Source: Felis catus
Lineage: Eukaryota
Direction of reading: 5' to 3'
Length of the DNA stretch: 64,000 nt
NCBI RefSeq assembly: GCF_018350175.1
Contig: NC_058373.1
Coordinates: 70,804,001-70,868,000, forward strand
Shown: piece after piece, positions 1 through 55,996 of the stretch
Numbering within the stretch: position 1 is the stretch's first letter
Layout of the letters: every line of letters starts with the position of its first letter
Position numbers and translations under genes: made by a program
Notes under the pieces: generated by a model
What the model saw: only the letters and a program-made list of their open reading frames with translations
Told to the model about the DNA's origin: nothing
Databases searched by the model: none

Positions 1-590
1 TAGGGGACTTTAACACCCCAGTTACATCAATGGACAGATCATCCAAACAAAATCAACAAGGAAACAGTAGCTTTGAATGGCACACTGCACCAGTTGGATT
101 TAGCAGACATATTCAGAACATTCCATCCTAAAACAGCAGAATACACATTCTTTTCAAGTGTACACAGAACATTCTCTAGAACAGATCCCATATTGGGTCA
201 CAAAACAAGTCGGAACAAATTCAAAAAAATCAAAGTCATACCATACATCTTTCCTGACCAAAACACTATAAAACTAGAAATCAACCACAAGAGAAAATCT
301 GGGAAGACCACAAATACATGGAGCTTAAATAACATGCTGCTTAACAATGGGTCAACCACAAAATCAAGGAAGAAATAAAAAATTATATGGAAACAAAGGA
401 AAATGAAAACACAATGATCCAAAATCTTTGGCAGGCAACAAAAGTGGTTTTAAGAGGGAAGTCAGAAAGCAAGAAAACCTCCGGAAGCAAGAAAAATATC
501 AAACTAACCTTACACCTAAAGGAGCTAGAAAAAGAACAAGGAAAACCCAAACCCATCAAAAGAAAGGCAATAATAAAAATTAGAGCAGAA

Positions 591-727
591 GGGCGCCTAG
601 GTGGCTCAGTTGGTTAAGCATCCTGATTTCAGCTCAGGTCCTGATCTCAGGGTTTGTGAGATGGAGCTGCACTGACAACATGGAGCCTGCTCGAGATTCT
701 CTCTTTCCCCTCTCTCTGCCCTTCCCC

Positions 728-773
<46 letters not shown>

Positions 774-798
774 TAAATAAATAAATATTAAAAATAAA
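591..798 (+). mobile_element. Carnivore tRNA-derived SINE (SINEC) nested in L1
   Basis: GGGCGCCTAGGTGGCTCAGTTGGTTAAG head, (CT)n, AATAAA tail; target-site duplication (TSD) TAGAGCAGAA at 581-590 and 799-808. Confidence 0.93.
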
Positions 799-920
799 TA
801 GAGCAGAAATAAATGATTTATAAACTAAAACAACAATGGAACAGATCAATGAAATCAGGAGGTGGTTCTTTGAAAAGACCAACAAAATTGATAAAGCAAA
901 ATTGATAAGCTGGACTCATC

Positions 921-923
<3 letters not shown>

Positions 924-973
<50 letters not shown>
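924..973. repeat. (GA)n microsatellite
   Basis: About 25 uninterrupted GA units inside the L1. Confidence 0.95.
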
Positions 974-977
<4 letters not shown>

Positions 978-3900
978 TTTGCAGTCTTAGCCAAATAAAT
1001 AAAATCACTAGTGAAGAGGAGAAGTAACAACAAACACCAAGAAATACAAAGGATTATAACAGAATATTATGACAACCTATGTGCCAACAGATTGGACAAC
1101 TTAGAAGAAACAGATAAATTCTTAAAAACATATAACATGCCAAAACCAAAGTAGGAAGAAATAGAAAATTTGAACAGACCAATTACCAGCAATGAAATTT
1201 AATCAGTAATCAAAAAATAAAAATGCAGGACAAGAAGGCTTCACAGACAATTTCTACCAAAAAGTTAAAGAAGAGTTAATACCTATTCCTCTCAAACTAT
1301 TCCAATAATATAAGAGGAAAGAAAACTTCCAAATTCATTCTATGAAGCCAGTATCACCCTGACACCAAAACCAGATAAAGACACCACAAAGAAACAAACC
1401 ATAGAACAGTATCTCATAAATATAGATGCAAAAATCCTCAGCAAAATATTAGCAAACAGAATCCAGCAATACATTTTAAAAAATCATGCACAACTATCAA
1501 GTGGGATTTATTCCTGGGATGCAAGGGCGTTTAATATTCACAAAACAATCAACATGACAGAGCACATCAACAAGAGAAAAGATAAAAACTGTATGATTGT
1601 TTCAATGCAGAAAAAGCATTTGACATAGTACCACATCAATTCATGGTAAAAACCCTCCGCAAGGTAGGTCTAAAGAGAACATACCCCAATATAATAAAGG
1701 CCATGTGTAAAAAACCCATAGCTAACATCACAGTCAATGGAGAAAAACTGAGAGAGCTCTTTCTAAGGTCAAGAACAGGACGGATGTCTACTCTCACCAC
1801 TTTTATTCAACATAGTAAAAGAAGTCTTACCCACAACAATCAGACAACAGAAAGAATTAAAAGGTGTCAAAAGTGATAAGGAAGAAGTAAAACTTTCAGT
1901 ATCTGCAGCTGACGTGATACTATGTATAAAAGCCAGAAGACTCCATCAAAACCTACTAGAACTGATAATAAACTCAGTAAGGTTGCAGGATACAAAATCC
2001 ATGTACAGAAACCTGTTGCATTCCTATGCACTAATAATGAAGTGGCAGAGAATGAAATTAGGAAAACAATCCTATTTACAATTGCACCAAAACCAAGAAA
2101 ATATCTAGAAATGAACTTACCCAAAGAGGTGAAAAATCTGTACACTGAAAATTATAAAACACTACTGAAAGTCAAGATGACCCAAAGAAATGGAAAGACT
2201 TTTTATGCTCCTAGGCTGAAAGAGTAAATATTGTTAAAATGTCCATACTACCCAGAGCAATATACAGATTTAGTGCAATCACTATCAAAATACCAATAGC
2301 ATTTTTCACAAACTAGAACAATCCTAAAATTTGAGTGGATCCACAAAAGACTTCAAATAGCCAAAGCAATCTTGCAAAAGAAAAACCAAACTTGAAATAT
2401 CACAATTCCAGATTTCAGTTATACTACCAAATGGTAGTAATTAAAACACTACGGTAGAGGCATAAAAATAGACATATAAATCAATGGAATAAAATAGAAA
2501 ACCCAGAAATAAACCTATAATTATGTGGTCAATTAATCTTCTACAAAGAAATGAATACACAAAGGGAAAAAGACAGTCTTCAACAAATGGTGCTGGGAAA
2601 ACTGGACAGCTACATGCCAGAGAATGACACCGGACCACTTTCTTACACCATACACAAATTAGATTCAAAATGGATTAAAGACCTACATGTGATACCTGAA
2701 ACTACAAAACTCCTAGAAGAAATCATAAGGAGTAATTTCTTTGATATGTGCTACAGAAACATTTTTCTAGATATGTCTCCTCAGGTAAGTGAAACAAAAG
2801 CAAAAATGAACCATTTGGGACTTCATCAAAATTAAAAAGCTTTTGTGCAGTAAAGGAAACTGAACAAAACAAAAAGGCAACCTGATGAATAGAAGATATT
2901 TTCAAATGATATATCTGATAAGGGGCTAATATTCAAAATATAAAAAGAACTTATACAACTTCACATAAAAAACTTTTTTTAATTAAATAATGGATGGAGA
3001 ACCTGAGACGTACAGATGGCCAATAGACACATGAAAAGACGTTCAACAACTCTAAACATCAGGAAAATGCAAATCAAAACCACAATGAGATATCATCTCA
3101 TACCCACCAGAATGACTAAAATCAAAAACACAAGAAACAACTGGTATTGGCAAGGATGTGGGAAAACAGGAACCCTCTTGTACTGTTGGAAGGAATGCAA
3201 ATTGGTGCAGACACTGTGGAAAACAGTATGAAGCTTACTCAAAAAGTTAAAAACAGAACTACCCCATGATCCAGTAATCACAGTACCAGGTATTTATCCA
3301 AAAAATACAGAAATGCTAATTAAAAGGGGTAAATGTGCCTCTATGTTTATTGCATCATTATTTATAATAGCTGGACTATGGAAGCAGCCCAAGTGTTCAA
3401 CTGATGAATGAAGATGATGTGATATGCACGTGCGCTCATTGAATACCATTCAATCATAAAAAAGAATGAAATATTGCCATTTGCAACAACATGGATAGAT
3501 CTAGAGAGTATAATTCTAAGCGAAATAAGTCGGAGAAGGAAAAATACTATGATTTCACTCATATGTGGAATTTAAGAAACAAAACAAATTAAAGGGAAAA
3601 AATGAGAGAGAGAGACAGACTGTAAACTAAAGAGAACAAACGGATGGTTACCAGGGGTAACCTGGTAGAGGAGGGGTGAAATAGGTGTTAGGGATTAAGG
3701 AGAGCACTTTAATGAAAATAATAATAAAATAACAAAAGGAGAGGAAAATAAAAACATTTCACTCTAATTTACATCCAGCTCACCAAAGAGAAGGGGGAAG
3801 ACTGTCAAATGGAAAGAATAGAGGAAGAGATACATGATATTATAATAATATAAACAGGAAGGGGAAATTAAAAACAAGAACAATTACAAAAACTATATTA

Positions 3901-4015
3901 AGAAAATAGGAAATGAACATGAAAAGACAGACACGGAAATGCATATTTTGTAAAACCTTATATACAAAAAACTCGACAGTAAAAGAAAGTTATTTTTTTA
4001 AAAAATGACACAAAC

Positions 4016-4455
4016 AGCCTTGGTGTTTGTGGCTCTCCTCTGTGGCCAAGGCGCCACCTGCAGTGTGCCCTGAGACCAGCTCCTTCACAGGCTGCAGGTG
4101 CCCCTGCATGGGGGCCAGGGGGAGCTGGGGCTCCGCCCTCCTCTGCCCTGGAAGTCATGGACCTCCTTGCCTCCCCTGTGCCACCACTGCTTTGTGTGGG
4201 GGACATGGCAAAGCACAGGGAGGAGAGGCCCTGCTTGCAGCCCACCCCAGCCCCTAAGTCAACATCCCTGGGCAGCGGCACCATGACCTGAAAGAACAGA
4301 TCTGTCAGGCAAGAGCTGCTGTAATGCATTATGATAAGGCCATTAAGAAGTGGGTGCCAGCCGGTAGCTCCACAGGGTTCAGCAGAGTTTATACATATCA
4401 TCCTACAGGCAATGACACGCTCAGAATGGTGGGCAAGAAAATTCAGGACCATCAG
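4016..4455 (+). pseudogene. ENAH: ENAH (Mena) processed-pseudogene fragment: GC-rich 5'UTR plus N-terminal EVH1 coding sequence
   Basis: 4300-4455 translates to ICQARAAVMHYDKAIKKWVPAGSSTGFSRVYTYHPTGNDTLRMVGKKIQDHQ, 41/52 identical to recalled ENAH residues 6-57. GGCACCATG at 4277-4285 is joined to it without an intron but with a 2-nt frameshift (ATG ACC TGA). The upstream GC-rich tract has only 3 CpG in 4021-4282. Confidence 0.92.
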
Positions 4456-4696
4456 CATTGCAGTGTGGGGGGTAACCTAGTGATATAAAGATGAAGGAAA
4501 CAACTATATGGATTGGAAAGGAAGAAACAAAGCTGACCTTATTCAGTGACAACACAATTGTCTACATTAAAAACCTCAAGAGTATCTGCAGTTAAAATAT
4601 TAGATTAAGCCTGTTGAGCATGTTTACTGGGTAGAAGATCAATTTATAAAAAGCAGTAGCTTTTTTGTATAACTAGCAATAAACAATTTGAAAATA

Positions 4697-5030
4697 CAGT
4701 TGACCCTGGAATAACCTGGGGGTTAGGGGAACCACCTCCCATGCAGTTGATTCTCCATATATAACTTTTAACTACCCCAAATTTTAACTATTAATAGCCA
4801 ACTGTTGACTGGAAGCCTTACCAATAAACATAAATAGTTGATGAACACATGTTTTGTATGTTATGTGTATTATGCATTATATTCTGACAAGAAAGTAAGC
4901 TAGAGAAAAGAAAATGTTATTAAAAAGATCGTAAGAAAGAGAACATAGACTTACAGTACTGTACTGTGTCAAAAAAATGTCCATGTAGAAGTGAACTTGG
5001 TTTAAACCTGTGTTGTTTGAGGATCAACAG
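4697..5030 (+). mobile_element. Tigger2-family (Tigger2a/MER28-like) non-autonomous DNA transposon
   Basis: Termini CAGTTGACCC... and ...GGATCAACAG, flanked by TA at 4695-4696 and 5031-5032; interior matches recalled Tigger2a sequence (GTAAGCTAGAGAAAAGAAAATGTTATT). Confidence 0.88.
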
Positions 5031-5056
5031 TATAATATTAGAAAGATATTGCTTAA

Positions 5057-5547
5057 TTTTTTGAGGAACCTCCACACTGTTTTCCAGAGTGGCTGCACCA
5101 GTTTGCATTCCTACCAACAGTGCAAGAGGGTTCCCATTTCTCCATATCCTTTCAACAATAGCCAAATTATGGAAAGAGCCTAAATGTCCATCAACTGATG
5201 AATGGATAAAGAAATTGTGGTTTATATACACAATGGAGTACTACGTGGCAATGAGAAAGAATGAAACATGGCCTTTTGTAGCAACGTGGATGGAACTGGA
5301 GTGTGTTATGCTAAGTGAAATAAGTCATACAGAGAAAGACAGATACCATGTTTTCACTCTTAGGTGTATGCTGAGAAACTTAACGGAAGACCATGGGGGA
5401 GGGGAAGGAAAAAAAAAAGGGAGGGAGCTAAACCGTAAGAGACTCTTAAAAACTGAGAACAATCTGAGGATTGAGGAGGGTACCTGTTGGGATGAGCACT
5501 GGGTGTTGTATGGAAACCAATTTGACAATAAATTTCATATTTAAAAA
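5057..5547 (+). mobile_element. Young felid L1 3' fragment with 5' inversion
   Basis: 5057-5150 is antisense L1 ORF2; 5151-5547 is sense ORF2 end, 3'UTR and A-tail; TSD AAAGATATTGCTTAA at 5042-5056 and 5548-5562. Confidence 0.92.
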
Positions 5548-5879
5548 AAAGATATTGCTTAAAGTAGCAACAATGTATCTAAGAATAAATCTAATAAATT
5601 GGTTGTCTTTCAAAAAATAAACAAGAAAAGAAACGAACAATGAAATATGGGGAGAAAACTCATCTTGGAGAATGTTACAGTCTATTGCCACCAAAGACTT
5701 AAAATGTGTGGGTTTTTTTTTTTCATAACTATACATAAACAGGGACCTTGTCTTCTAATGTTTGCCATGGCACTTAAAATTAACCTGATGATCTAAACTA
5801 GTTTTCAGAATGGAGACTTCTTATTTCTGCTGGGAAAAATTTATCATTTTAGACAATCTTAGAAACTAAAATCATGAGC

Positions 5880-6530
5880 TAGTTGGCATTATAGTGTCAG
5901 CAATGTAGCACTGAAGGAGGCAAAAAAAAAAAAAAAGTTCCTGGGAATTTGACATTCAAATGCATGGAGAAGACAATAAACAAACACACCAGAAAGGAAA
6001 CATCTGACTGTGATGAGTGTTGGGTAGAAATATAACCAAGTGATATGCTGGAAAGAGTCAGGGAAGAGGCTGCTGTGCTAGGTGAGCTAGCCAGGGAAAG
6101 TCTTGCTGGACAGCTGGCATTTCAACAGATATCTGAATGTCTGGAATAATCCCACTATGTGGATATCTGAAGAGCTGATAGAAGGCCATGAAGAAGGAAG
6201 ACAATGATGCACTAAGCAGCAGAAAGGAAGAGAAAGAAAGAGAAAGGCCACTATGACAAGAGAGTAGTGGCCAAATGGAATTTTTAAAAAGTGTTAGGCA
6301 AGATAGAGAGGAAGGGCCAGATATGGATCAAATGCCAATTGGTCATCATTTCATTTGAGATGTTATAAACGGTGAGTGACAATATCTGATTTACATTTTT
6401 TAAAGATTATTCTGATACTGGTAAAGAATGGGTTTTAGAAGCCTAGAGTAGAAGCAAGGAGACCAGTTAGGGAGCATTTGAAGTACTGTAGACAAGAGAT
6501 GGTGATAGGCTAGGCTAGGAGGTAGAACAA
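5880..6530. mobile_element. L2-like ancient LINE remnant
   Basis: Purine-rich, L2-like sequence (GCAAGGAGACCAGTTAGGGAG...); boundaries approximate. Confidence 0.5.
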
Positions 6531-12493: not shown

Positions 12494-13435
12494 TCACTTC
12501 TCTTTACATAAAATATATCTGTTGACCAACTTCCTCATGGCTGTCTTTACTTCCTTATTTCGCAAGGTATAGATAATGGGATTAAGTAAAGGGAATATCA
12601 CAGTATGGAACACTGACACCACTTTATCTAGGGAAAAAGAGTCAAATGGGCGAGCATAAATGTAGATGGATGGCCCAAACATAAATACCACAATGGTGAT
12701 GTGGGAATAGCAGGTGGACATGGCCCGGCTGGTACTCTCATCTGAGCCTGAATGTTTCTTAAGCATGGCCAGGAGGAAGGCGTAGGACATTAAGAGAGCA
12801 ATGAAACATACCACAGAGATCAGACCACTGCTAAAAATCATCACTAATTCCTCCGGGAAGGTATTGGCACAGGCAATCCGGATAACCTGCGTGATGTCAC
12901 AGAAGTAACTGTCTAACTCATTGGGCCCACAGAACGGAAGTCGAACAATGAGAGCCACTTGTATTATAGAATGAATAAAGCCCCCCAACCAGGAGAGAAC
13001 CACCAGGATGCTGCAGAGACGTCGATTCATGATAGTAGCATAGTGGAGAGGACGGCAGATAGCAGCATAGCGGTCAAACGCCATTACTGTGAGCAGGAAC
13101 ATCTCTGAGGCTCCAACAAAGTGCAAGAAAAAGAGCTGTGCAATGCACCCACCAAAGGAAATTCTCTTCCTTTCCACAAAGAAGTCTATGAGCATTTTAG
13201 GGGCTGTGATGGAGGAGTACCAAATGTCAAGGAAGGCCAGATTAGCCAACAGGAAATACATGGGTGAGGTCAAATGAGGGTCAAGCCTGATTGTGCAAAT
13301 AATAAGAATATTTCCTGGAAGGATGAACAAATAGAAGGATAGAAATATAACAAATAGGACTAGTTGTACCTCTCGAGTCTGGGATAGGCCAGTGAGAACA
13401 AACTCTGTCACTCTTGTGTAATTTGCAGGTTCCAT
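12494..13435 (-). CDS. OR4M1: Olfactory receptor family 4 subfamily M member 1, intact 313 aa
   Basis: 7TM OR motifs [39 protein letters not shown]; N-glycosylation site NYT; near-identical to recalled human OR4M1 including RAMSTCYSH and the ILCKEK C-terminus. Confidence 0.95.
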
Positions 13436-13461
13436 TTCTTCACTTTTTAAAAATAATGTGG

Positions 13462-13485
13462 CTATAAAAAAAATAAAGAAATTGC
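13462..13485 (-). promoter_or_regulatory. Predicted splice acceptor upstream of the OR4M1 coding exon
   Basis: Minus strand reads TTTCTTTATTTTTTTTATAG|CCACATT, 26 nt before the ATG. Confidence 0.55.
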
Positions 13486-15874
13486 AATTACTCCAAATGG
13501 CATTATTTTACTGCTTTTGAAATCATCAGATTGGCCTCTGTCACTAAGAGACTGTATTAGGATACATCTGATTGTCCCATTTGATGTCTGATAAGCCAAA
13601 ATAGGGGAAAAGTAAGTGATGACCTGAAAATTAGAAACACTGAAATCATATGAAGTGTGTCACATATCAGAAACCAAAATCCCAATCTATTAATGTTATT
13701 AATTTCTATTTTTTGTGAAACTCGGCAGTGCACTAATTCTTTCCCCATGCATCTACCTTAGTAAGAAATATATGCAGCTACTTATAAGATAAGCCAAATT
13801 GTAGACTGGTAATAAGAAAAACAGCTGTTATTTCTAGATTTTTTTGTCGTTGTTGAGAAATATAGCCAACTTGGAAACTTGCTTGTCTAATATCGGGTAC
13901 ACTGATCTGGCAGTATTTTCTTTTTAATCTTTCAAAAAGATCCCAGGGCTTCATGTGTAATGAATGGACATTTCTTCTTTAACCAAAGCCTATACAGCTT
14001 AATCCTTGGTAATAGGTAAGTAGCCACAATATACAACAATGCAGGGCCATAGATGATAATTCTTTGGGCTGCGATCAGATCTCATTTCTGCACTGACCAT
14101 GCATTTTATTCACTGCCCCAGGAAGGTAGGAAAAAGATATAGAGATCTAAGAAATGGGTTTGCTTACTACCCAAGCTGACTCATTCTGCCATTTTAAGAT
14201 GACAGTGGGAATAAGATTATTGTTAAAATTTTGCTCAAGGCCTAGTCTTGAACCTACTACTATTAGATAAAACAAAACCCATTGAATAAAAATAATATAA
14301 TCATTCACTTTACCAAATATGCTTTCTCTTTTAGGTAATATAAACACTGCCCATCAAAGTAAGTATTTCTTATAGCCAACAAACAATATGAAAGAGTTGC
14401 TTCTGTTCTACTGATGTGCTGTTTTATAATATTGCCTCTCCTCAGGAGGTAAGCATAGAAAAACAAAGTTAAGATTCTATAAAACCAAGTGGATGAAACA
14501 GCATCCAGGCAATAAAGATTATGTATACTATTGACTGAAGTAATCCAGTGTTTCTTCCTTCGAAGCTACCCACTCAATTTGTGCATAATTTTAATGACCA
14601 TAGACATATGACTTTCAGAACTAATATGCTATAAAAGCAAGAAAATAATGCTAAAGAAGGATGGTTCACTATAAGCCAACACATGAGAAAATACCAGTAT
14701 TTGCCAGCAATCTGACACAAAAGGAAGAAAACAAAAACACTGAGAAAGTTCAGCATTGTGGGACTTTTTAGCAAAAGGATAAATATACCCACTCATGAAT
14801 AGCCCAAGGTGAGCCTTAATGAGTTAATTAATCACGTTTAGTAAGACAGTGAAATTTAAAATTCAGTTTGGAAAAATTTTAATCAAAAAAAAGATAATGC
14901 TGCCAATTTTCAATCCTCAACTTTCTTAAAAGCATGGTTATCCAGATTGACATATTTCCTAGGAATCCAGAAAGCAATGGTTTTACTATATTTACCTAGA
15001 GAGGGTGCCTGATAGCCTCCATAAAACATTACACATGATATTGAAAGCTCTATCCCAAAACATATAGCTTCTGTGTCACTTCTATAAATAACCCATTTGT
15101 TTATTCAACAACTATTTAGAGGATATCTACTATGTCTTAACTGCTGAGAATACAACAATGAACAAGAAGACTTGGTTTCTGACTCACTTAAACTTCCATT
15201 TTAGAAGATTGACAGAAAACTAATTAGTAAACAAGCAATAAGTAAATAAATGAATGATAAATAATCAAAACAAATAATTACCACTATTGATAAGAGACAA
15301 GAGTGAAGTAAAAAAGGGATTATGATAGAAAATAAATGGTAGTGGCACATGGTGGTGATGGTGATGGCTTTTTTAGAAGAGCATCTTTGAACTAGTGGCA
15401 TTTCAACCAATTGAAAGCAAGAGAAAAAGCATTCTAGGAATAGGGAAGAGCAAATGCAAAGGCCTTGTGATAGGGAAGGGTTTCTAGGAGCTATAGAAGA
15501 TCTGCAACTTACTGAAGCACAAAAACAGAATGGAGATAGCCAAAGGACCAAGTATTGTGTCTTATAAGAAGAAAATTATATTTTAATAGCTTCCAATATA
15601 TTTTAGAATAAAATCTAAAGAATAACTTAACAAGATTTGTGATTTAGAAATATTACCCTTGCCTCTTTGCAAATAAATTGAAGTAGGATTAGGTGTGGGT
15701 TAACCTACAGATACAGCAACAGCTACTAAGAGAAACGAAGTGTTTTCTTTAGAAAATACTTAGGAGATCCAATTGGCAGGATTTAATGTTGAATTGTATA
15801 ATGTCATTGTCCCACTACCAAAGTCAGTCAGAATTTGAGCACCATAATGGCAAACTATTAAAAAATGTATCTTT

Positions 15875-27483: not shown

Positions 27484-28422
27484 CTATCCCTTCCCCTTTT
27501 CCTTCAAGGAGAACTTGCGACTCCATATCCGTTTCATGGCATTCTTTACATCCTCATTCCTCAGAGTATAGATGAGTGGGTTTAGCATTGGGGTAATGGT
27601 AGTATAAAACACAGACACAGCCTTATCCAGTGGGAAAGTAGTGGAGGGACGGAGATAAATAAATATACAAGGGACAAAGAAGAAAGTTACTACAGTGAAA
27701 TGAGACCCACAGGTAGAGAGAGCCTTGCGCCGGCTCTCTGAAGATCGCTTACGGAGACTAAACAGAATGACCGTGTAGGAGGCCAGAAGAATGAGGAAAC
27801 ACCCCAGAGAGATGAGACCACTGTTGGCAACCACCAACATATTTACCAGGGTTGTATCAGCACAGGCAAGCTTTAGGACTGGGTGGACATCACAAAAGTA
27901 GTGGTCAATGACCTGATCATTGCAGAAAGGCAGCTGAAAGGTCAGAAGGGTCTGAACAAAGGAATGACCCAGGGCTCCTAACCAGGACAATGATGCCAGA
28001 ACAATACAAACATTGGCACTCATGATGGTAGTATAGCGGAGAGGTTGGCAGATGGCAGCATAACGGTCGAAAGCCATAACAGTCAAAACAAAAATCTCCG
28101 CACACCCAAAAAAGTGGAAGGTAAACATCTGAGTTACACAGCCCCAGTAGGAAATGGTCTTTTTCTCAGAAATAAAGTCTGCAATCATCTTGGGTGCTGT
28201 GGCTGAGGAATAGGCAATGTCCACAAAGGACAGGTTACTGAGGAAGAAATACATGGGCGTTTGGAGCTGGGGATCAGAAAAGACCGTAAGCAAAATGAGC
28301 AGATTTCCCACCATGATCACGATGTAGAAGAGGAGAAATAAGGCAAAGAACATCAGTTGCATTCCAGGATCTTGGGAAAGTCCTAGGAATATAAATTCAG
28401 TGACATTATTAGCCACTTCCAT
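27484..28422 (-). CDS. Olfactory receptor family 4, intact 312 aa; probable OR4H-subfamily gene (position of human OR4H12P)
   Basis: [46 protein letters not shown]; N-terminal NVT sequon. The subfamily call rests on recalled synteny between OR4Q3 and OR4M1. Confidence 0.92.
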   Translation of the reverse strand: MEVANNVTEFIFLGLSQDPGMQLMFFALFLLFYIVIMVGNLLILLTVFSDPQLQTPMYFFLSNLSFVDIAYSSATAPKMIADFISEKKTISYWGCVTQMFTFHFFGCAEIFVLTVMAFDRYAAICQPLRYTTIMSANVCIVLASLSWLGALGHSFVQTLLTFQLPFCNDQVIDHYFCDVHPVLKLACADTTLVNMLVVANSGLISLGCFLILLASYTVILFSLRKRSSESRRKALSTCGSHFTVVTFFFVPCIFIYLRPSTTFPLDKAVSVFYTTITPMLNPLIYTLRNEDVKNAMKRIWSRKFSLKEKGKG

Positions 28423-28460
28423 GGGGACCCAGATGGTACTGGCTTGGTGGCTCTGGTTCT

Positions 28461-28485
28461 CTGCAAAAATAAATAAATATAAACC
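28461..28485 (-). promoter_or_regulatory. Predicted splice acceptor upstream of the OR4H-like coding exon
   Basis: Minus strand reads TATATTTATTTATTTTTGCAG|AGAACC, 38 nt before the ATG. Confidence 0.55.
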
Positions 28486-29311
28486 ACTGTAAGCATGGTA
28501 CAGCCTAAAGGAGAAGTCTTATTAAAATATTTAAGTGATGCTAAATATAGGAGAGTAAACTTCATATTTCTTGAGCATAGTCAATTTTCTTACCACATTA
28601 TTGACTCACATTTGGTTTCTGTTACACTCAGACCTATAGTTCTTTTCTCTCAAATAATAATCTAGAGAATATGACGATTTTTTATTGGATTTAATGTTGT
28701 TCCCTAATCCTCCCTCTCTCTGTCTCTCTCTCTCTCGTATTGCCAGAAATTCTCTTTCAGATGGAAAATTTTAAATCAATTATTAAATAAATTTTTGAGG
28801 CTTAAGGTAAATATAAGAAGTCAGAATCCGAGATTTGATGCCAAATTTCTTAGATGGATCTTTTTTAACATAATGTACAGAGATCAACTTTAGAAGAATA
28901 ACATTCTACTTAATCAAATGATAGACTTTTTAGTTTCTAAATTAGGTTGGGAGTTTCAATACAATTAAAGATTAAGTCATTTTTAGTGATGAACAACAGC
29001 AGAAACAGAGGTCTCCTGCTTACCAAAAACCCATGCTTATAAGTAACATCCTGGGAGTTTGAGTCCTAAGACTTGGTATCCATGTGAAAATTTCATTTTG
29101 CTTGTCAGTAAGGAATACGTGAAGAGTGGTCAACCTATACAGAGAAATGTTTTTCTCTATGTTGCTCTAAAGAGTTGAAAAGCTAAAACATACTGAGGCC
29201 CCTATCATTCTCAACCCCTTTGCCTTGAAATAGCCTTCTGTCCTTGTAATCATAGGTAAGAATCAGTAGTTAAATTTCCATACAGAAAAAGCTGTAAATG
29301 GTAAAGAATAA

Positions 29312-41164: not shown

Positions 41165-42115
41165 TCATCCTTTAACATGGCAGAAGGATGCCACATGCTT
41201 TTTTCTCAGCTTCTTCATGACAGTCTTCATTTCAGCATTTCTGAGTGTGTAGATGAGAGGATTCAACATAGGTGTGATCACTGTGTAAAAGACAGAGAAT
41301 ACCTTATCCACGGAGAAGCTGCAGAAAGGCCTCAGGTAGATGAATACACATGGCACAAAGATCAGGCTGACCACTGTTAGGTGGGAGGCACAGGTAGAGA
41401 GTGCCTTGCTGTGGCCCTGACGGAAGCGAGTTCTCACGGTGATGAGGATGATGGCATAAGAGAACAGCAAGACCAAAAAGCAGACGAGAGATAACAGACC
41501 ACTATTTGAGACCATCAGTACCTCTACTACATATGTGTCCGTGCACGCTAGCTTGATGACCTGTGGGACATCACAGTAGAAGTTGTCCAGTTCAGTGGGA
41601 CCACAGAAGGGCAGCTGTATGACCAGCGTGACCTGTGTGATAGAATGGATGAAACCCCCACACCAACAGGCAAAAACCAACTGAAAGCAGAGCTGACGAT
41701 TCATGACTGTCAAGTAGTGCAAAGGATTACATATGGCAACATACCTATCATAGGCCATGACTGTCAGCAGAAACATCTCACTGGCTCCCAGAAAGTGCAG
41801 GAAGTAGATCTGGGCCAAGCATCCTGAAAAAGAGATGATCTTGTCTTGCTGTAGGAAATCTCCTAACATCTTGGGCACGGTAACACAGCTCAGGCATAGG
41901 TCAATGAAGGACAGATGGCCCAAAAAATAGTACATAGGAGATTGGAGCAGGTGAGCATCAGCTCGCACTGTTACAATTATCAAGAGGTTTCCCAAAACAA
42001 CAGTCATGTAAAAAAACAAAAATATTAAGAAGAGAAATAGCTGTAGCTCCCAAGAGGATGATAGGCCCAGAAGAACAAATTCTGTCACTTTAGAATCATT
42101 TCTTTTTTTCATCAA
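41165..42115 (-). CDS. OR4Q3: Olfactory receptor family 4 subfamily Q member 3, intact 316 aa
   Basis: Distinctive GLSSSWELQLFLF, HLLQSPMYYFLGHLSFIDLCLSCVTVPKMLGDFLQQ and LRPFCSFSVDK match recalled human OR4Q3; MAYDRYVAIC and PMLNPLIYTLRN are intact. Confidence 0.95.
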   Translation of the reverse strand: MMKKRNDSKVTEFVLLGLSSSWELQLFLFLIFLFFYMTVVLGNLLIIVTVRADAHLLQSPMYYFLGHLSFIDLCLSCVTVPKMLGDFLQQDKIISFSGCLAQIYFLHFLGASEMFLLTVMAYDRYVAICNPLHYLTVMNRQLCFQLVFACWCGGFIHSITQVTLVIQLPFCGPTELDNFYCDVPQVIKLACTDTYVVEVLMVSNSGLLSLVCFLVLLFSYAIILITVRTRFRQGHSKALSTCASHLTVVSLIFVPCVFIYLRPFCSFSVDKVFSVFYTVITPMLNPLIYTLRNAEMKTVMKKLRKKHVASFCHVKG

Positions 42116-42134
42116 GTCAAGAATACCAAGTGAC

Positions 42135-42176
42135 CTAGAGAAAGAAGAATTAAATTGGAAGAAGAAAGATTTAACT
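42135..42176 (-). promoter_or_regulatory. Predicted splice acceptor upstream of the OR4Q3 coding exon
   Basis: Minus strand reads TCTTTCTTCTTCCAATTTAATTCTTCTTTCTCTAG|GTCAC, 19 nt before the first ATG. Confidence 0.65.
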
Positions 42177-55009: not shown

Positions 55010-55996
55010 ATGAACATCTCTGGATCAGGATCCTCTTCTGAGTCAGTGAGAGAATTCATCCTTCTGGGTTTTCCCTGCAGCAGGGAGATTCAGGTCATCC
55101 TGTTTATGTTCTTCTCCATCATCTACCTCCTGACTCTCATGGGAAATGGAGCCATTATCTGTGCTGTTTTTTGGGATCAACATCTCCACACCCCCATGTA
55201 CATCCTGCTTGGGAATTTTGCATTCCTGGAGATCTGGTATGTCAATTCCACTGTTCCAAACACACTGATCGACTTCCTCTCAGAGACCAAGACCATCTCT
55301 TTCACTGGATGCTTCCTTCAATTATATTTTTTCTTTTCCATGGGCTCCACTGAGTGCTTCTTTCTCTCAGCAATGGCCTTTGATCGCTATTTTGCCATCT
55401 GTCATCCTCTGCATTATGCCACAGTTATGAACAGACAACAGTCTTTCAACCTAGCAATTTCCTGTTGGGTATGTGGCTTTCTCTGGTATCTGGTACCTGT
55501 TATTCTCATCTCCCAACTGCCTTTCTGTGGTCCTAATGCAATTGACCACTTTGTCTGTGACTCAGGCCCACTGCTGACCCTTTCATGTGCTCCTGCCCCT
55601 GTGTCCAAGCTCATCAGCTATACTCTAAGCTCCCTCATCATCCTCCTTAGCTTTTTCTTCATCCTCATCTCCTATGCCCTGGTTCTACTTGCTGTGCTTC
55701 AGTTGCCCTCAGCATCCAGTCGGCATAAGGCCTTTTCAACATGTGGATCCCATTTGTCCGTGGTGCTGTTATTCTACGGGACGATTATGGTGATGCATGT
55801 GAGCCCTGGATCCAGCCATTCTACCCTGATGCCAAAGATCATGACCTTGTTCTATGCAATGGTGACTCCACTCTTCAACCCTTTGATTTATAGTCTTAGG
55901 AATAAGGAAATGAAAAATGCTCTCTGGAAAGTTCTGGAAAAGTTTAAAATGTCTTTAAAAGTCTTTGACAGCAGACCCAGCAGAAGTGTGAAATAA
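55010..55996 (+). CDS. Olfactory receptor family 11, intact 328 aa; probable OR11K-type (position of human OR11K2P)
   Basis: LLGFPCSREIQ, LHTPMYILLGNFAFLEIWY, MAFDRYFAICHPLHY, KAFSTCGSH, PLFNPLIYSLRNKEM are OR11G/H/K hallmarks; NIS sequon. The subfamily call rests on recalled synteny. Confidence 0.93.
   Translation: MNISGSGSSSESVREFILLGFPCSREIQVILFMFFSIIYLLTLMGNGAIICAVFWDQHLHTPMYILLGNFAFLEIWYVNSTVPNTLIDFLSETKTISFTGCFLQLYFFFSMGSTECFFLSAMAFDRYFAICHPLHYATVMNRQQSFNLAISCWVCGFLWYLVPVILISQLPFCGPNAIDHFVCDSGPLLTLSCAPAPVSKLISYTLSSLIILLSFFFILISYALVLLAVLQLPSASSRHKAFSTCGSHLSVVLLFYGTIMVMHVSPGSSHSTLMPKIMTLFYAMVTPLFNPLIYSLRNKEMKNALWKVLEKFKMSLKVFDSRPSRSVK

What the first reader, a model, noticed from the sequence alone, without database searches (positions are those of the whole stretch)
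4016..4455. Hidden ENAH retrocopy that keeps the 5' end and stops exactly at the exon-2 boundary
Seen: a GC-rich, CpG-depleted tract, a Kozak-like GGCACCATG, then 52 codons matching the ENAH EVH1 N-terminus, ending at CAG GAC CAT CAG (Q57). The ORF track misses it. Knowledge (recalled): ENAH exon 1 ends just after the ATG and exon 2 ends at codon 57, and L1-made retrocopies are normally 5'-truncated. Inference: a copy with 5'UTR, a spliced exon 1/2 junction and an end precisely at the exon-2 donor is atypical. It may record a short ENAH isoform in which exon 2 spliced to a cryptic intronic L1 exon (next bases CATTG are L1-like). Alternatives are an RT template switch at CAG or a later deletion.
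Basis: partly seen in the sequence, partly recalled or inferred. Interest (0 to 1): 0.7.

Follow-up and report, generated by a model that had tools for sequence, protein, structure and literature searches.

The report
Fossil of short-stop ENAH message
A dead DNA copy of a messenger RNA from the cell-movement gene ENAH joins the gene's first two exons to a stretch of old transposon DNA in its second intron and ends in a likely poly(A) tail, so it likely records an early-ending form of this message made in ancestral germ cells; this is a clean case of a known phenomenon, and whether the short form is still made or does anything is untested.

Summary
The parent ENAH gene lies on another contig of the same genome. 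The copy holds exon 1 (5' UTR, ATG) and exon 2, without the 68.9-kb intron 1. At the exon-2 donor it continues straight into sequence 2.23 kb inside parent intron 2, directly after a pyrimidine-rich AG acceptor. That 651-nt last exon (decayed L1 ORF2 plus a Tigger-like DNA transposon, 80% identical to the parent) ends 13-22 nt after two AATAAA signals, in an A-rich tail the parent lacks. So it is a near-full-length processed pseudogene of a 'skipped terminal exon' intronic-polyadenylation isoform, predicted to encode 67 residues (half an EVH1 domain). The copy is dead (stop at codon 3, neutral decay), likely about 45-60 My old. No target-site duplication above chance. The exon shows no excess conservation. 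Present-day expression is untested. I found no mention of this isoform in the papers searched. The scan has found the same kind of fossil on other DNA (KCTD13, NKD1, TMEM163). New member of a known kind; modest interest.

The parts
4022..4282 (+). 5' UTR copied from ENAH exon 1 (CpG-decayed); the 5' end may reach a few bases further, to about 4016
   Evidence: aligns to G000:C42:1826465-1826185 (-), 174 of 247 ungapped columns; score 74 vs shuffle max 49 of 300; CpG 3 vs 60
4283..4299 (+). ATG and spliced exon 1/exon 2 junction, blurred by small indels (net +2 nt); TGA at 4289-4291 kills the frame
   Evidence: parent intron 1 (68,923 nt) is absent
4294..4455 (+). ENAH exon 2 (EVH1 residues to Q57), ending at the exon-2 donor position
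   Evidence: 138 of 162 ungapped columns identical to C42:1757255-1757091; donor CAG|GTAAGG in parent
4456..4694 (+). start of the cryptic last exon: decayed sense-strand L1 ORF2 piece from ENAH intron 2; carries 10 codons and the stop TAA at 4486-4488
   Evidence: aligns from its first base to C42:1754856, after the acceptor ...TTTTCATTTAG; weak protein match to L1 ORF2p, E 0.0045; aligns with L1 copies, one of them anchored to ORF2p at E 1e-14
4695..5032 (+). non-autonomous DNA transposon (TA ends, terminal inverted repeats; 'Tigger2-like' is a recalled label) inside the last exon, at the same place as in the parent intron
   Evidence: family of 3563 first-look candidates, 40 scored
5033..5056 (+). 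L1-derived exon sequence resumes; 5044-5056 is the first copy of the later insertion's target-site duplication
5057..5549 (.). younger L1 3' fragment (493 nt, 5' part inverted) inserted into the copy after it formed; not part of the ENAH message
   Evidence: exact 13-nt duplication at 5044 and 5550; absent from parent; ORF2 C-terminal pieces on both strands
5550..5611 (+). end of the last exon, with AATAAA at 5584-5589 and 5593-5598
   Evidence: 54 of 60 ungapped columns identical to parent over 5548-5607; signals seen in the sequence
5612..5640 (+). A-rich tail (22 of 29 A), read as a decayed poly(A) tail; not templated in the parent
   Evidence: parent 41 nt downstream are 29% A and 39% T; the right flank does not align to the parent (score 33 vs shuffle max 48 of 50)

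Best explanation
The stretch 4022-5640 is a dead copy of ENAH exon 1 and exon 2 joined to a 651-nt transposon-derived segment of ENAH intron 2 and an A-rich tail, likely made by L1 reverse transcription of a spliced mRNA that was cleaved and polyadenylated inside intron 2. Likely order of events. (1) An old sense-strand L1 in ENAH intron 2 took a DNA-transposon insertion (shared structure shown, order inferred). (2) An AA-to-AG change in the L1 created a 3' splice site 2,234 nt from the exon-2 donor, and AATAAA motifs in the A-rich L1 sequence served as poly(A) signals (sequence shown, use inferred from the copy). (3) The spliceosome sometimes joined exon 2 to this site, giving a roughly 1.1-kb mRNA predicted to encode 67 residues, the N-terminal half of EVH1 plus 10 new residues; its stop lies in the last exon, so it would escape junction-dependent decay (inferred). 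(4) L1 machinery in the germline copied this mRNA almost to its 5' end into an olfactory-receptor cluster, likely 45-60 million years ago (inferred). (5) The copy has decayed neutrally since. The isoform itself is most likely a low-level by-product that diverts some transcripts from full-length ENAH, not a selected product.
For: The junction falls exactly at the parent's exon-2 donor on one side and directly after a pyrimidine-rich AG on the other: 14 of 18 pyrimidines, one of 14 such sites among 759 AGs in the 8,825-nt intron, while the normal exon-3 acceptor has 10 of 18. Nothing upstream of that AG is in the copy (left-flank control score 40 vs shuffle max 63 of 50). The 651-nt exon aligns end to end (1-646, score 566, 472 of 589 identical) only to ENAH intron 2. 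The 8 other L1 loci cover at most positions 23-246 (score up to 173), and the 19 other transposon loci start at position 184 or later (score up to 373). Shared derived bases with the parent: 18 vs 1-10 for 6 other L1 copies; 13 vs 1-8 for 19 other transposon copies. The acceptor AG reads AA in 6 of 6 other L1 copies. Homology ends 13-22 nt after AATAAA, at an untemplated A-rich tail. The stop codon sits at the same place in parent and copy. Decay looks neutral: dN 0.114 in exon 2 against half of the last exon's K2P 0.233; 13 non-synonymous changes seen, about 12 expected (P 0.46-0.65). No exon 3 or later ENAH in 74 kb and no other ENAH-exon-2 copy in the genome.
Against: No target-site duplication above chance: best 9 of 13, reached by 99 of 266 control 13-mers. 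The tail is only 76% A, and the exact exon 1/2 junction is blurred by indels. On the L1 piece alone another L1 copy scores higher than the parent (BLAST E 1e-19 vs 4e-12; 167 vs 154), and on the transposon body alone other copies are about as similar (74-83%); only colinearity and shared derived bases single out the parent. Synonymous change in exon 2 (11 of 33 sites, dS 0.45) is higher than 0.23 (P 0.05). No transcript carrying the junction was seen directly.
Confidence: 0.92

Rival explanations
1. A partly spliced RNA (intron 1 out, the first 3 kb of intron 2 kept, polyadenylated at the same site) was retrocopied, and 2.2 kb was lost by a reverse-transcriptase jump at the shared AG or by a later deletion.
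For: The two ends share the 2-nt AG microhomology. Composite terminal exons are the commoner intronic-polyadenylation type: 61.6% of 2675 isoforms (PMC5928244, passages).
Against: Both breakpoints coincide with splice signals: the true donor, and one of only 14 pyrimidine-rich YAG sites in 8,825 nt. AG|AG overlap is built into any splice junction. Three earlier AATAAA motifs lie in the skipped part of the present-day intron (offsets 1258, 1405, 1474).
Confidence: 0.04
2. The copy is a short exon 1-2 fragment that landed in, or was joined to, an unrelated old L1, and the likeness to ENAH intron 2 is only repeat-family similarity.
For: Both parts of the last exon are abundant repeats, and other copies score as well on each part alone.
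Against: Only ENAH intron 2 has the same L1-transposon-L1 order, the same start, the same end and an excess of shared derived bases (0 of 8 L1 loci and 0 of 19 transposon loci span it).
Confidence: 0.01
3. The copy arose as described, but the short isoform is a selected, regulated product: an off-switch for ENAH output, or a 67-residue half-EVH1 peptide, still made today.
For: The parent still has the acceptor, the stop at the same codon and AATAAA motifs at the exon's end. The message was present in the germline often enough to be copied, while no full-length ENAH copy holding exon 2 was found. Transposon-derived intronic poly(A) isoforms can be functional (IL18R1-Short, PMC13232192, abstract).
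Against: The 33 coding-tail bases are no better kept than the rest of the exon (27 of 33 vs 445 of 556, P 1.0). The parent exon has changed faster than the copy (17.4% vs 12.7% from the transposon family majority) and took a SINE insertion. A product of 57 of about 113 EVH1 residues would be unlikely to fold (inference). One copy is no measure of abundance.
Confidence: 0.12

Closest known systems
L1-made processed pseudogenes (retrocopies); hallmarks as reviewed in PMC5470649 (passages)
   Same: introns removed, 3' end complete with an A-rich tail remnant, different contig from the parent, neutral decay
   Different: the template was not the canonical mRNA; the 5' end is nearly complete because the message was short; the target-site duplication is no longer recognisable
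Retrocopies as archives of transcript isoforms (Shemesh et al. 2006; not held, seen only as a citation in PMC4772013 and PMC5470649; content recalled)
   Same: a pseudogene preserves an exon junction missing from the usual gene model
   Different: here the extra exon is a whole transposon-derived last exon with its own poly(A) signal, and the point change that made its acceptor can be read from sister L1 copies
'Skipped terminal exon' intronic polyadenylation isoforms (PMC5928244, passages)
   Same: new acceptor plus intronic AAUAAA near the 5' end of a long gene; ORF under 100 codons, like the 469 5' isoforms called non-coding or micropeptide sources there
   Different: inferred from a DNA fossil, not from RNA; ENAH not found in that paper's 4 searchable supplements
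Poly(A) sites exapted from L1 ORF2 (PMC2553571, abstract and section 11)
   Same: the poly(A) signal comes from A-rich sense-strand ORF2 of an old L1; such intronic sites are described as poorly conserved
   Different: acceptor, coding tail and poly(A) signal all come from the same L1 piece, with a DNA transposon in between

Membership tests
processed pseudogene (L1 retrocopy) | introns of the parent precisely absent | tested here: met
   intron 1 (68,923 nt) absent, junction blurred by small indels; the 2,234-nt donor-to-AG interval absent exactly
processed pseudogene (L1 retrocopy) | untemplated poly(A) remnant after a poly(A) signal | tested here: met
   22 of 29 A at 5612-5640, 13-22 nt after AATAAA; not in parent
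processed pseudogene (L1 retrocopy) | target-site duplication / L1 endonuclease site | tested here: inconclusive
   TTTT/AAAA at about 4000 on the left; best duplication 9 of 13, matched by 99 of 266 controls
processed pseudogene (L1 retrocopy) | disabled frame and neutral decay | tested here: met
   stop at codon 3; 13 non-synonymous changes in 52 codons, dN 0.114
skipped-terminal-exon intronic polyadenylation isoform (the template) | upstream donor joined to a new intronic acceptor | tested here: met
   CAG|GT donor and pyrimidine-rich TAG| acceptor in the parent flank the junction in the copy
skipped-terminal-exon intronic polyadenylation isoform (the template) | cleavage shortly after AAUAAA inside the intron | tested here: met
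   homology ends and the A-rich tail starts 13-22 nt after tandem AATAAA; read from the fossil, not from RNA
skipped-terminal-exon intronic polyadenylation isoform (the template) | junction and 3' end seen in RNA | not tested
functional retrogene | intact frame under purifying selection | tested here: not met
   frameshift and stop at codon 3; non-synonymous changes at the neutral rate

The most novel reading that the evidence does not exclude
Carnivores have kept, for some 50 million years, a transposon-built early exit in ENAH intron 2 that is still used in germ cells or embryos to cut full-length Mena output or to make a 67-residue half-EVH1 peptide. The retrocopy would date this undescribed switch in a well-studied invasion and motility gene.
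Probability: 0.12. Interest if true: 0.6.

Novelty: new member of a known kind. Interest (0 to 1): 0.36.

Why it matters
It yields an exact, testable gene-model prediction for ENAH (acceptor at G000:C42:1754856, cleavage near 1754045, 67-residue product) without any RNA data. It also shows the birth of an exon step by step: L1 insertion, DNA-transposon insertion, an AA-to-AG change, poly(A) use, then germline retrocopying. It explains an apparently 3'-truncated retrocopy as an ordinary copy of a short message. The phenomenon is known, and the evidence does not show function, so the interest is moderate.

Tried and rejected
Sequencing-run search for parent exon 2 plus intron 2: no RNA holder listed among 20 holders (14 only guessed to be RNA; 4 further raw RNA runs added by species label); no evidence either way. 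No read-level result was obtained, so present-day use of the exon is open. Target-site duplication: nothing above chance. Genome searches with the left flank (3735-4015) and right flank (5635-5920) found only the window itself, so no empty-site paralogue; my first impression that the left flank is old L1 continuing across the insertion was not supported. Exon 3 or later ENAH in the window plus 10 kb upstream: none (best tblastn E 0.95). Excess conservation of the coding tail: none. Literature: 'ENAHP1' 0 papers; ENAH + intronic polyadenylation 4 papers, 3 listed, the one with most ENAH mentions concerns exon 11a (PMC8052449, passages); listings showed no title or abstract on an intron-2 ENAH isoform (20 of 150, 15 of 46 and 15 of 124 papers listed). 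Supplements searched for ENAH: PMC8559711 (3 files, 1 not searchable), PMC5928244, PMC11289681, PMC13262950: no hits; PMC6465371 (11 files, 1 unreadable, 2 of the files with hits cut when stored): only expression and phosphosite rows among the 5 places shown of 11. Full poly(A)-site atlases and gene annotations were not available, so the isoform may be on record there. Shemesh 2006 and Podlaha and Zhang 2009 are not held. Searches for EVH1 pocket residue numbers in PMC8639148 and PMC8789275 did not give them, so I make no residue-level claim. No structure prediction was run: a fold of half a domain would not decide anything.

Full report
Observation. The window holds a GC-rich island at about 4016-4290 in an AT-rich, L1-rich setting. 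After an ATG at 4283, bases 4300-4455 translate to 52 residues of the ENAH EVH1 domain (PDB Mena/ENAH E about 1e-23, EVL 1e-13, VASP 2e-10; Pfam WH1). A DNA search of the own genome found 2 matches: the window, and an exon on contig C42 (84% identity). A protein search found 4: these two plus two paralogous exons at 56% and 45% identity, which I take to be EVL and VASP. The C42 exon is 166 nt, has an intron on each side, and ends CATCAG|GTAAGG. Exon 1, ending CACCATGAG|GTGAGG in a CpG island, lies 68,923 nt upstream, and exon 3 lies 8,825 nt downstream. The window's 4022-4291 aligns to exon 1 (174 of 247 ungapped columns; score 74 against 31.7 +/- 4.6, maximum 49, in 300 base shuffles). One correction: the ATG is out of frame with the EVH1 codons (net +2 nt) and is followed by a stop at codon 3.

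What follows exon 2. A genome search with 4456-4700 gave 14 matches. After the window itself, the best by score was an L1 copy on C31 (query 51-241). The next was inside ENAH intron 2 and was the only one that began at query base 1. BLAST against 200 kb of the parent locus showed three colinear pieces: 4454-4819, 4807-5054 and 5548-5599, matching C42:1754858-1754058. The breaks are two later insertions: a 493-nt L1 3' fragment in the copy, with an exact 13-nt duplication, and a SINE of about 200 nt in the parent, with a 10-nt duplication. With both removed, a 651-nt segment aligns from base 1 to 646 (472 identical, 117 different, 79 gap columns; K2P 0.233). In the parent this segment starts right after ...TTTTCATTTAG, 2,234 nt from the exon-2 donor. 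That AG has 14 of 18 pyrimidines upstream, one of 14 such sites among 759 AGs in the intron. At the other end the match stops just after two AATAAA motifs (5584, 5593), and 22 of the next 29 bases are A; the parent has no such run. Neither flank of the copy aligns to the parent above shuffles.

Controls for repeat similarity. Both components are common repeats. The first is L1 ORF2 (weak direct protein match, E 0.0045; alignment with L1 copies, one anchored to ORF2p at E 1e-14). The second is a 338-nt element with TA ends and inverted termini, with 3563 first-look candidates in the genome; 'Tigger2-like' is my recalled label. On each part alone other copies score as well as the parent or better. 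But none of 8 other L1 loci and none of 19 other transposon loci spans the composite (best scores 173 and 373 against 566). The parent also shares more derived bases with the copy: 18 against 1-10 in the L1 part and 13 against 1-8 in the transposon. The loci compared were the top hits returned (8 of 12 non-self, non-parent L1 matches; 19 of 39 scored transposon matches). The two bases before the junction are AG in the parent and AA in 6 of 6 other L1 copies, so the acceptor is a derived point change. Other L1 copies carry similar A-rich words at the position of the first poly(A) signal, which fits L1 ORF2 as a known source of poly(A) sites (PMC2553571, section 11).

How it most likely works. 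Shown: the structure exon 1 - exon 2 - intronic segment - AATAAA - A-rich tail, and splice signals at both sides of the junction in the parent. Inferred: a spliced mRNA of about 1.1 kb, polyadenylated in intron 2, of the 'skipped terminal exon' type (PMC5928244, passages), copied by L1 in the germline. The short template explains why the 5' UTR survived: nothing atypical is needed. In the parent the new exon adds ten codons (HCRGGGNLVT) and a stop after Q57; the copy has HCSVGGNLVI and a stop at the same place. The predicted product is 67 residues, about half of the roughly 113-residue EVH1 domain, without the rest of the protein; I infer that it would not fold as EVH1. The likelier effect of the isoform is a small loss of full-length message.

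State and age. Exon 2 differs at 20 of 52 codons, with 13 non-synonymous and 11 synonymous changes (dN 0.114, dS 0.45). If the parent's protein has not changed, dN measures the copy's own branch; it matches half the last exon's divergence (0.117) and fits neutral decay from the start. dS is somewhat high (P 0.05). In the transposon the copy is 12.7% and the parent 17.4% from the family majority, with a small shared branch, so the copy formed not long after the transposon arrived. With recalled carnivore rates (about 0.1 substitutions per site on the cat line since the cat-dog split, 45-55 My), this suggests 45-60 My; the copy may be shared with dog-like carnivores. A target-site duplication could not be shown (9 of 13 at best; 99 of 266 controls do as well).

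Is the exon under selection? The parent still has the AG, the stop and AATAAA motifs at offsets 3018 and 3027. But at roughly 13% change per site such motifs often survive by chance (inference), the coding tail is no better kept than the rest (27 of 33 vs 445 of 556, P 1.0), and a SINE has inserted into the exon. No RNA-level result was obtained, so present-day use is open.

Comparison with what is known. Retrocopies as archives of isoforms are an established idea (Shemesh et al. 2006, seen only as cited in PMC4772013 and PMC5470649). Intronic polyadenylation with a new last exon near the 5' end of long genes is common (PMC5928244). Transposon-derived intronic sites tend to be poorly conserved (PMC2553571, abstract), though some are functional (PMC13232192, abstract). 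I found no mention of an ENAH intron-2 isoform or of this pseudogene in paper searches or in the supplements of five papers; some files could not be read, and genome annotations and poly(A) atlases were out of reach, so absence from print is not established. Earlier notes of this scan describe the same kind of fossil for KCTD13 and NKD1 in this genome and TMEM163 in another (unchecked AI notes); none concerns ENAH in this sense.

Verdict. Membership: processed pseudogene (three of four features met, duplication inconclusive), template a skipped-terminal-exon intronic polyadenylation isoform (DNA features met, RNA untested). New member of a known kind; interest 0.36. The bold reading, a still-used regulatory exit in carnivore ENAH, has probability about 0.12.

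Noticed in passing
window 12494-13507, 27484-28518, 41165-42175, 55010-55996 (all minus strand), and about 3.3 kb upstream of the window: Five long intact frames that read like olfactory receptors; the copy sits in an olfactory-receptor cluster. Family names (OR4, OR11 type) are recalled, not tested.
   Followed up: no
window 5057-5549: Younger L1 3' fragment with an inverted 5' part and an exact 13-nt duplication, inserted into the retrocopy's last exon; typical twin-priming structure (recalled).
   Followed up: partly
window 1-3730: A long decayed sense-strand L1 (ORF2 pieces, E 1e-14 to ORF2p) ends about 290 nt before the retrocopy.
   Followed up: partly
G000:C42:1754540-1754341 (L009): A SINE with a 10-nt duplication, inserted in antisense into the parent's cryptic last exon after the copy formed; it may have changed use of the exon and gives a relative date.
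   Followed up: partly
G000:C42:1767128-1766791: A second copy of the same DNA-transposon family in ENAH intron 1, same orientation.
   Followed up: no
G000:C42:1754856-1754047: The parent locus has changed faster than the copy (17.4% vs 12.7% from the transposon majority); it lies within 2 Mb of the contig end in CpG-rich sequence, which may explain it.
   Followed up: no
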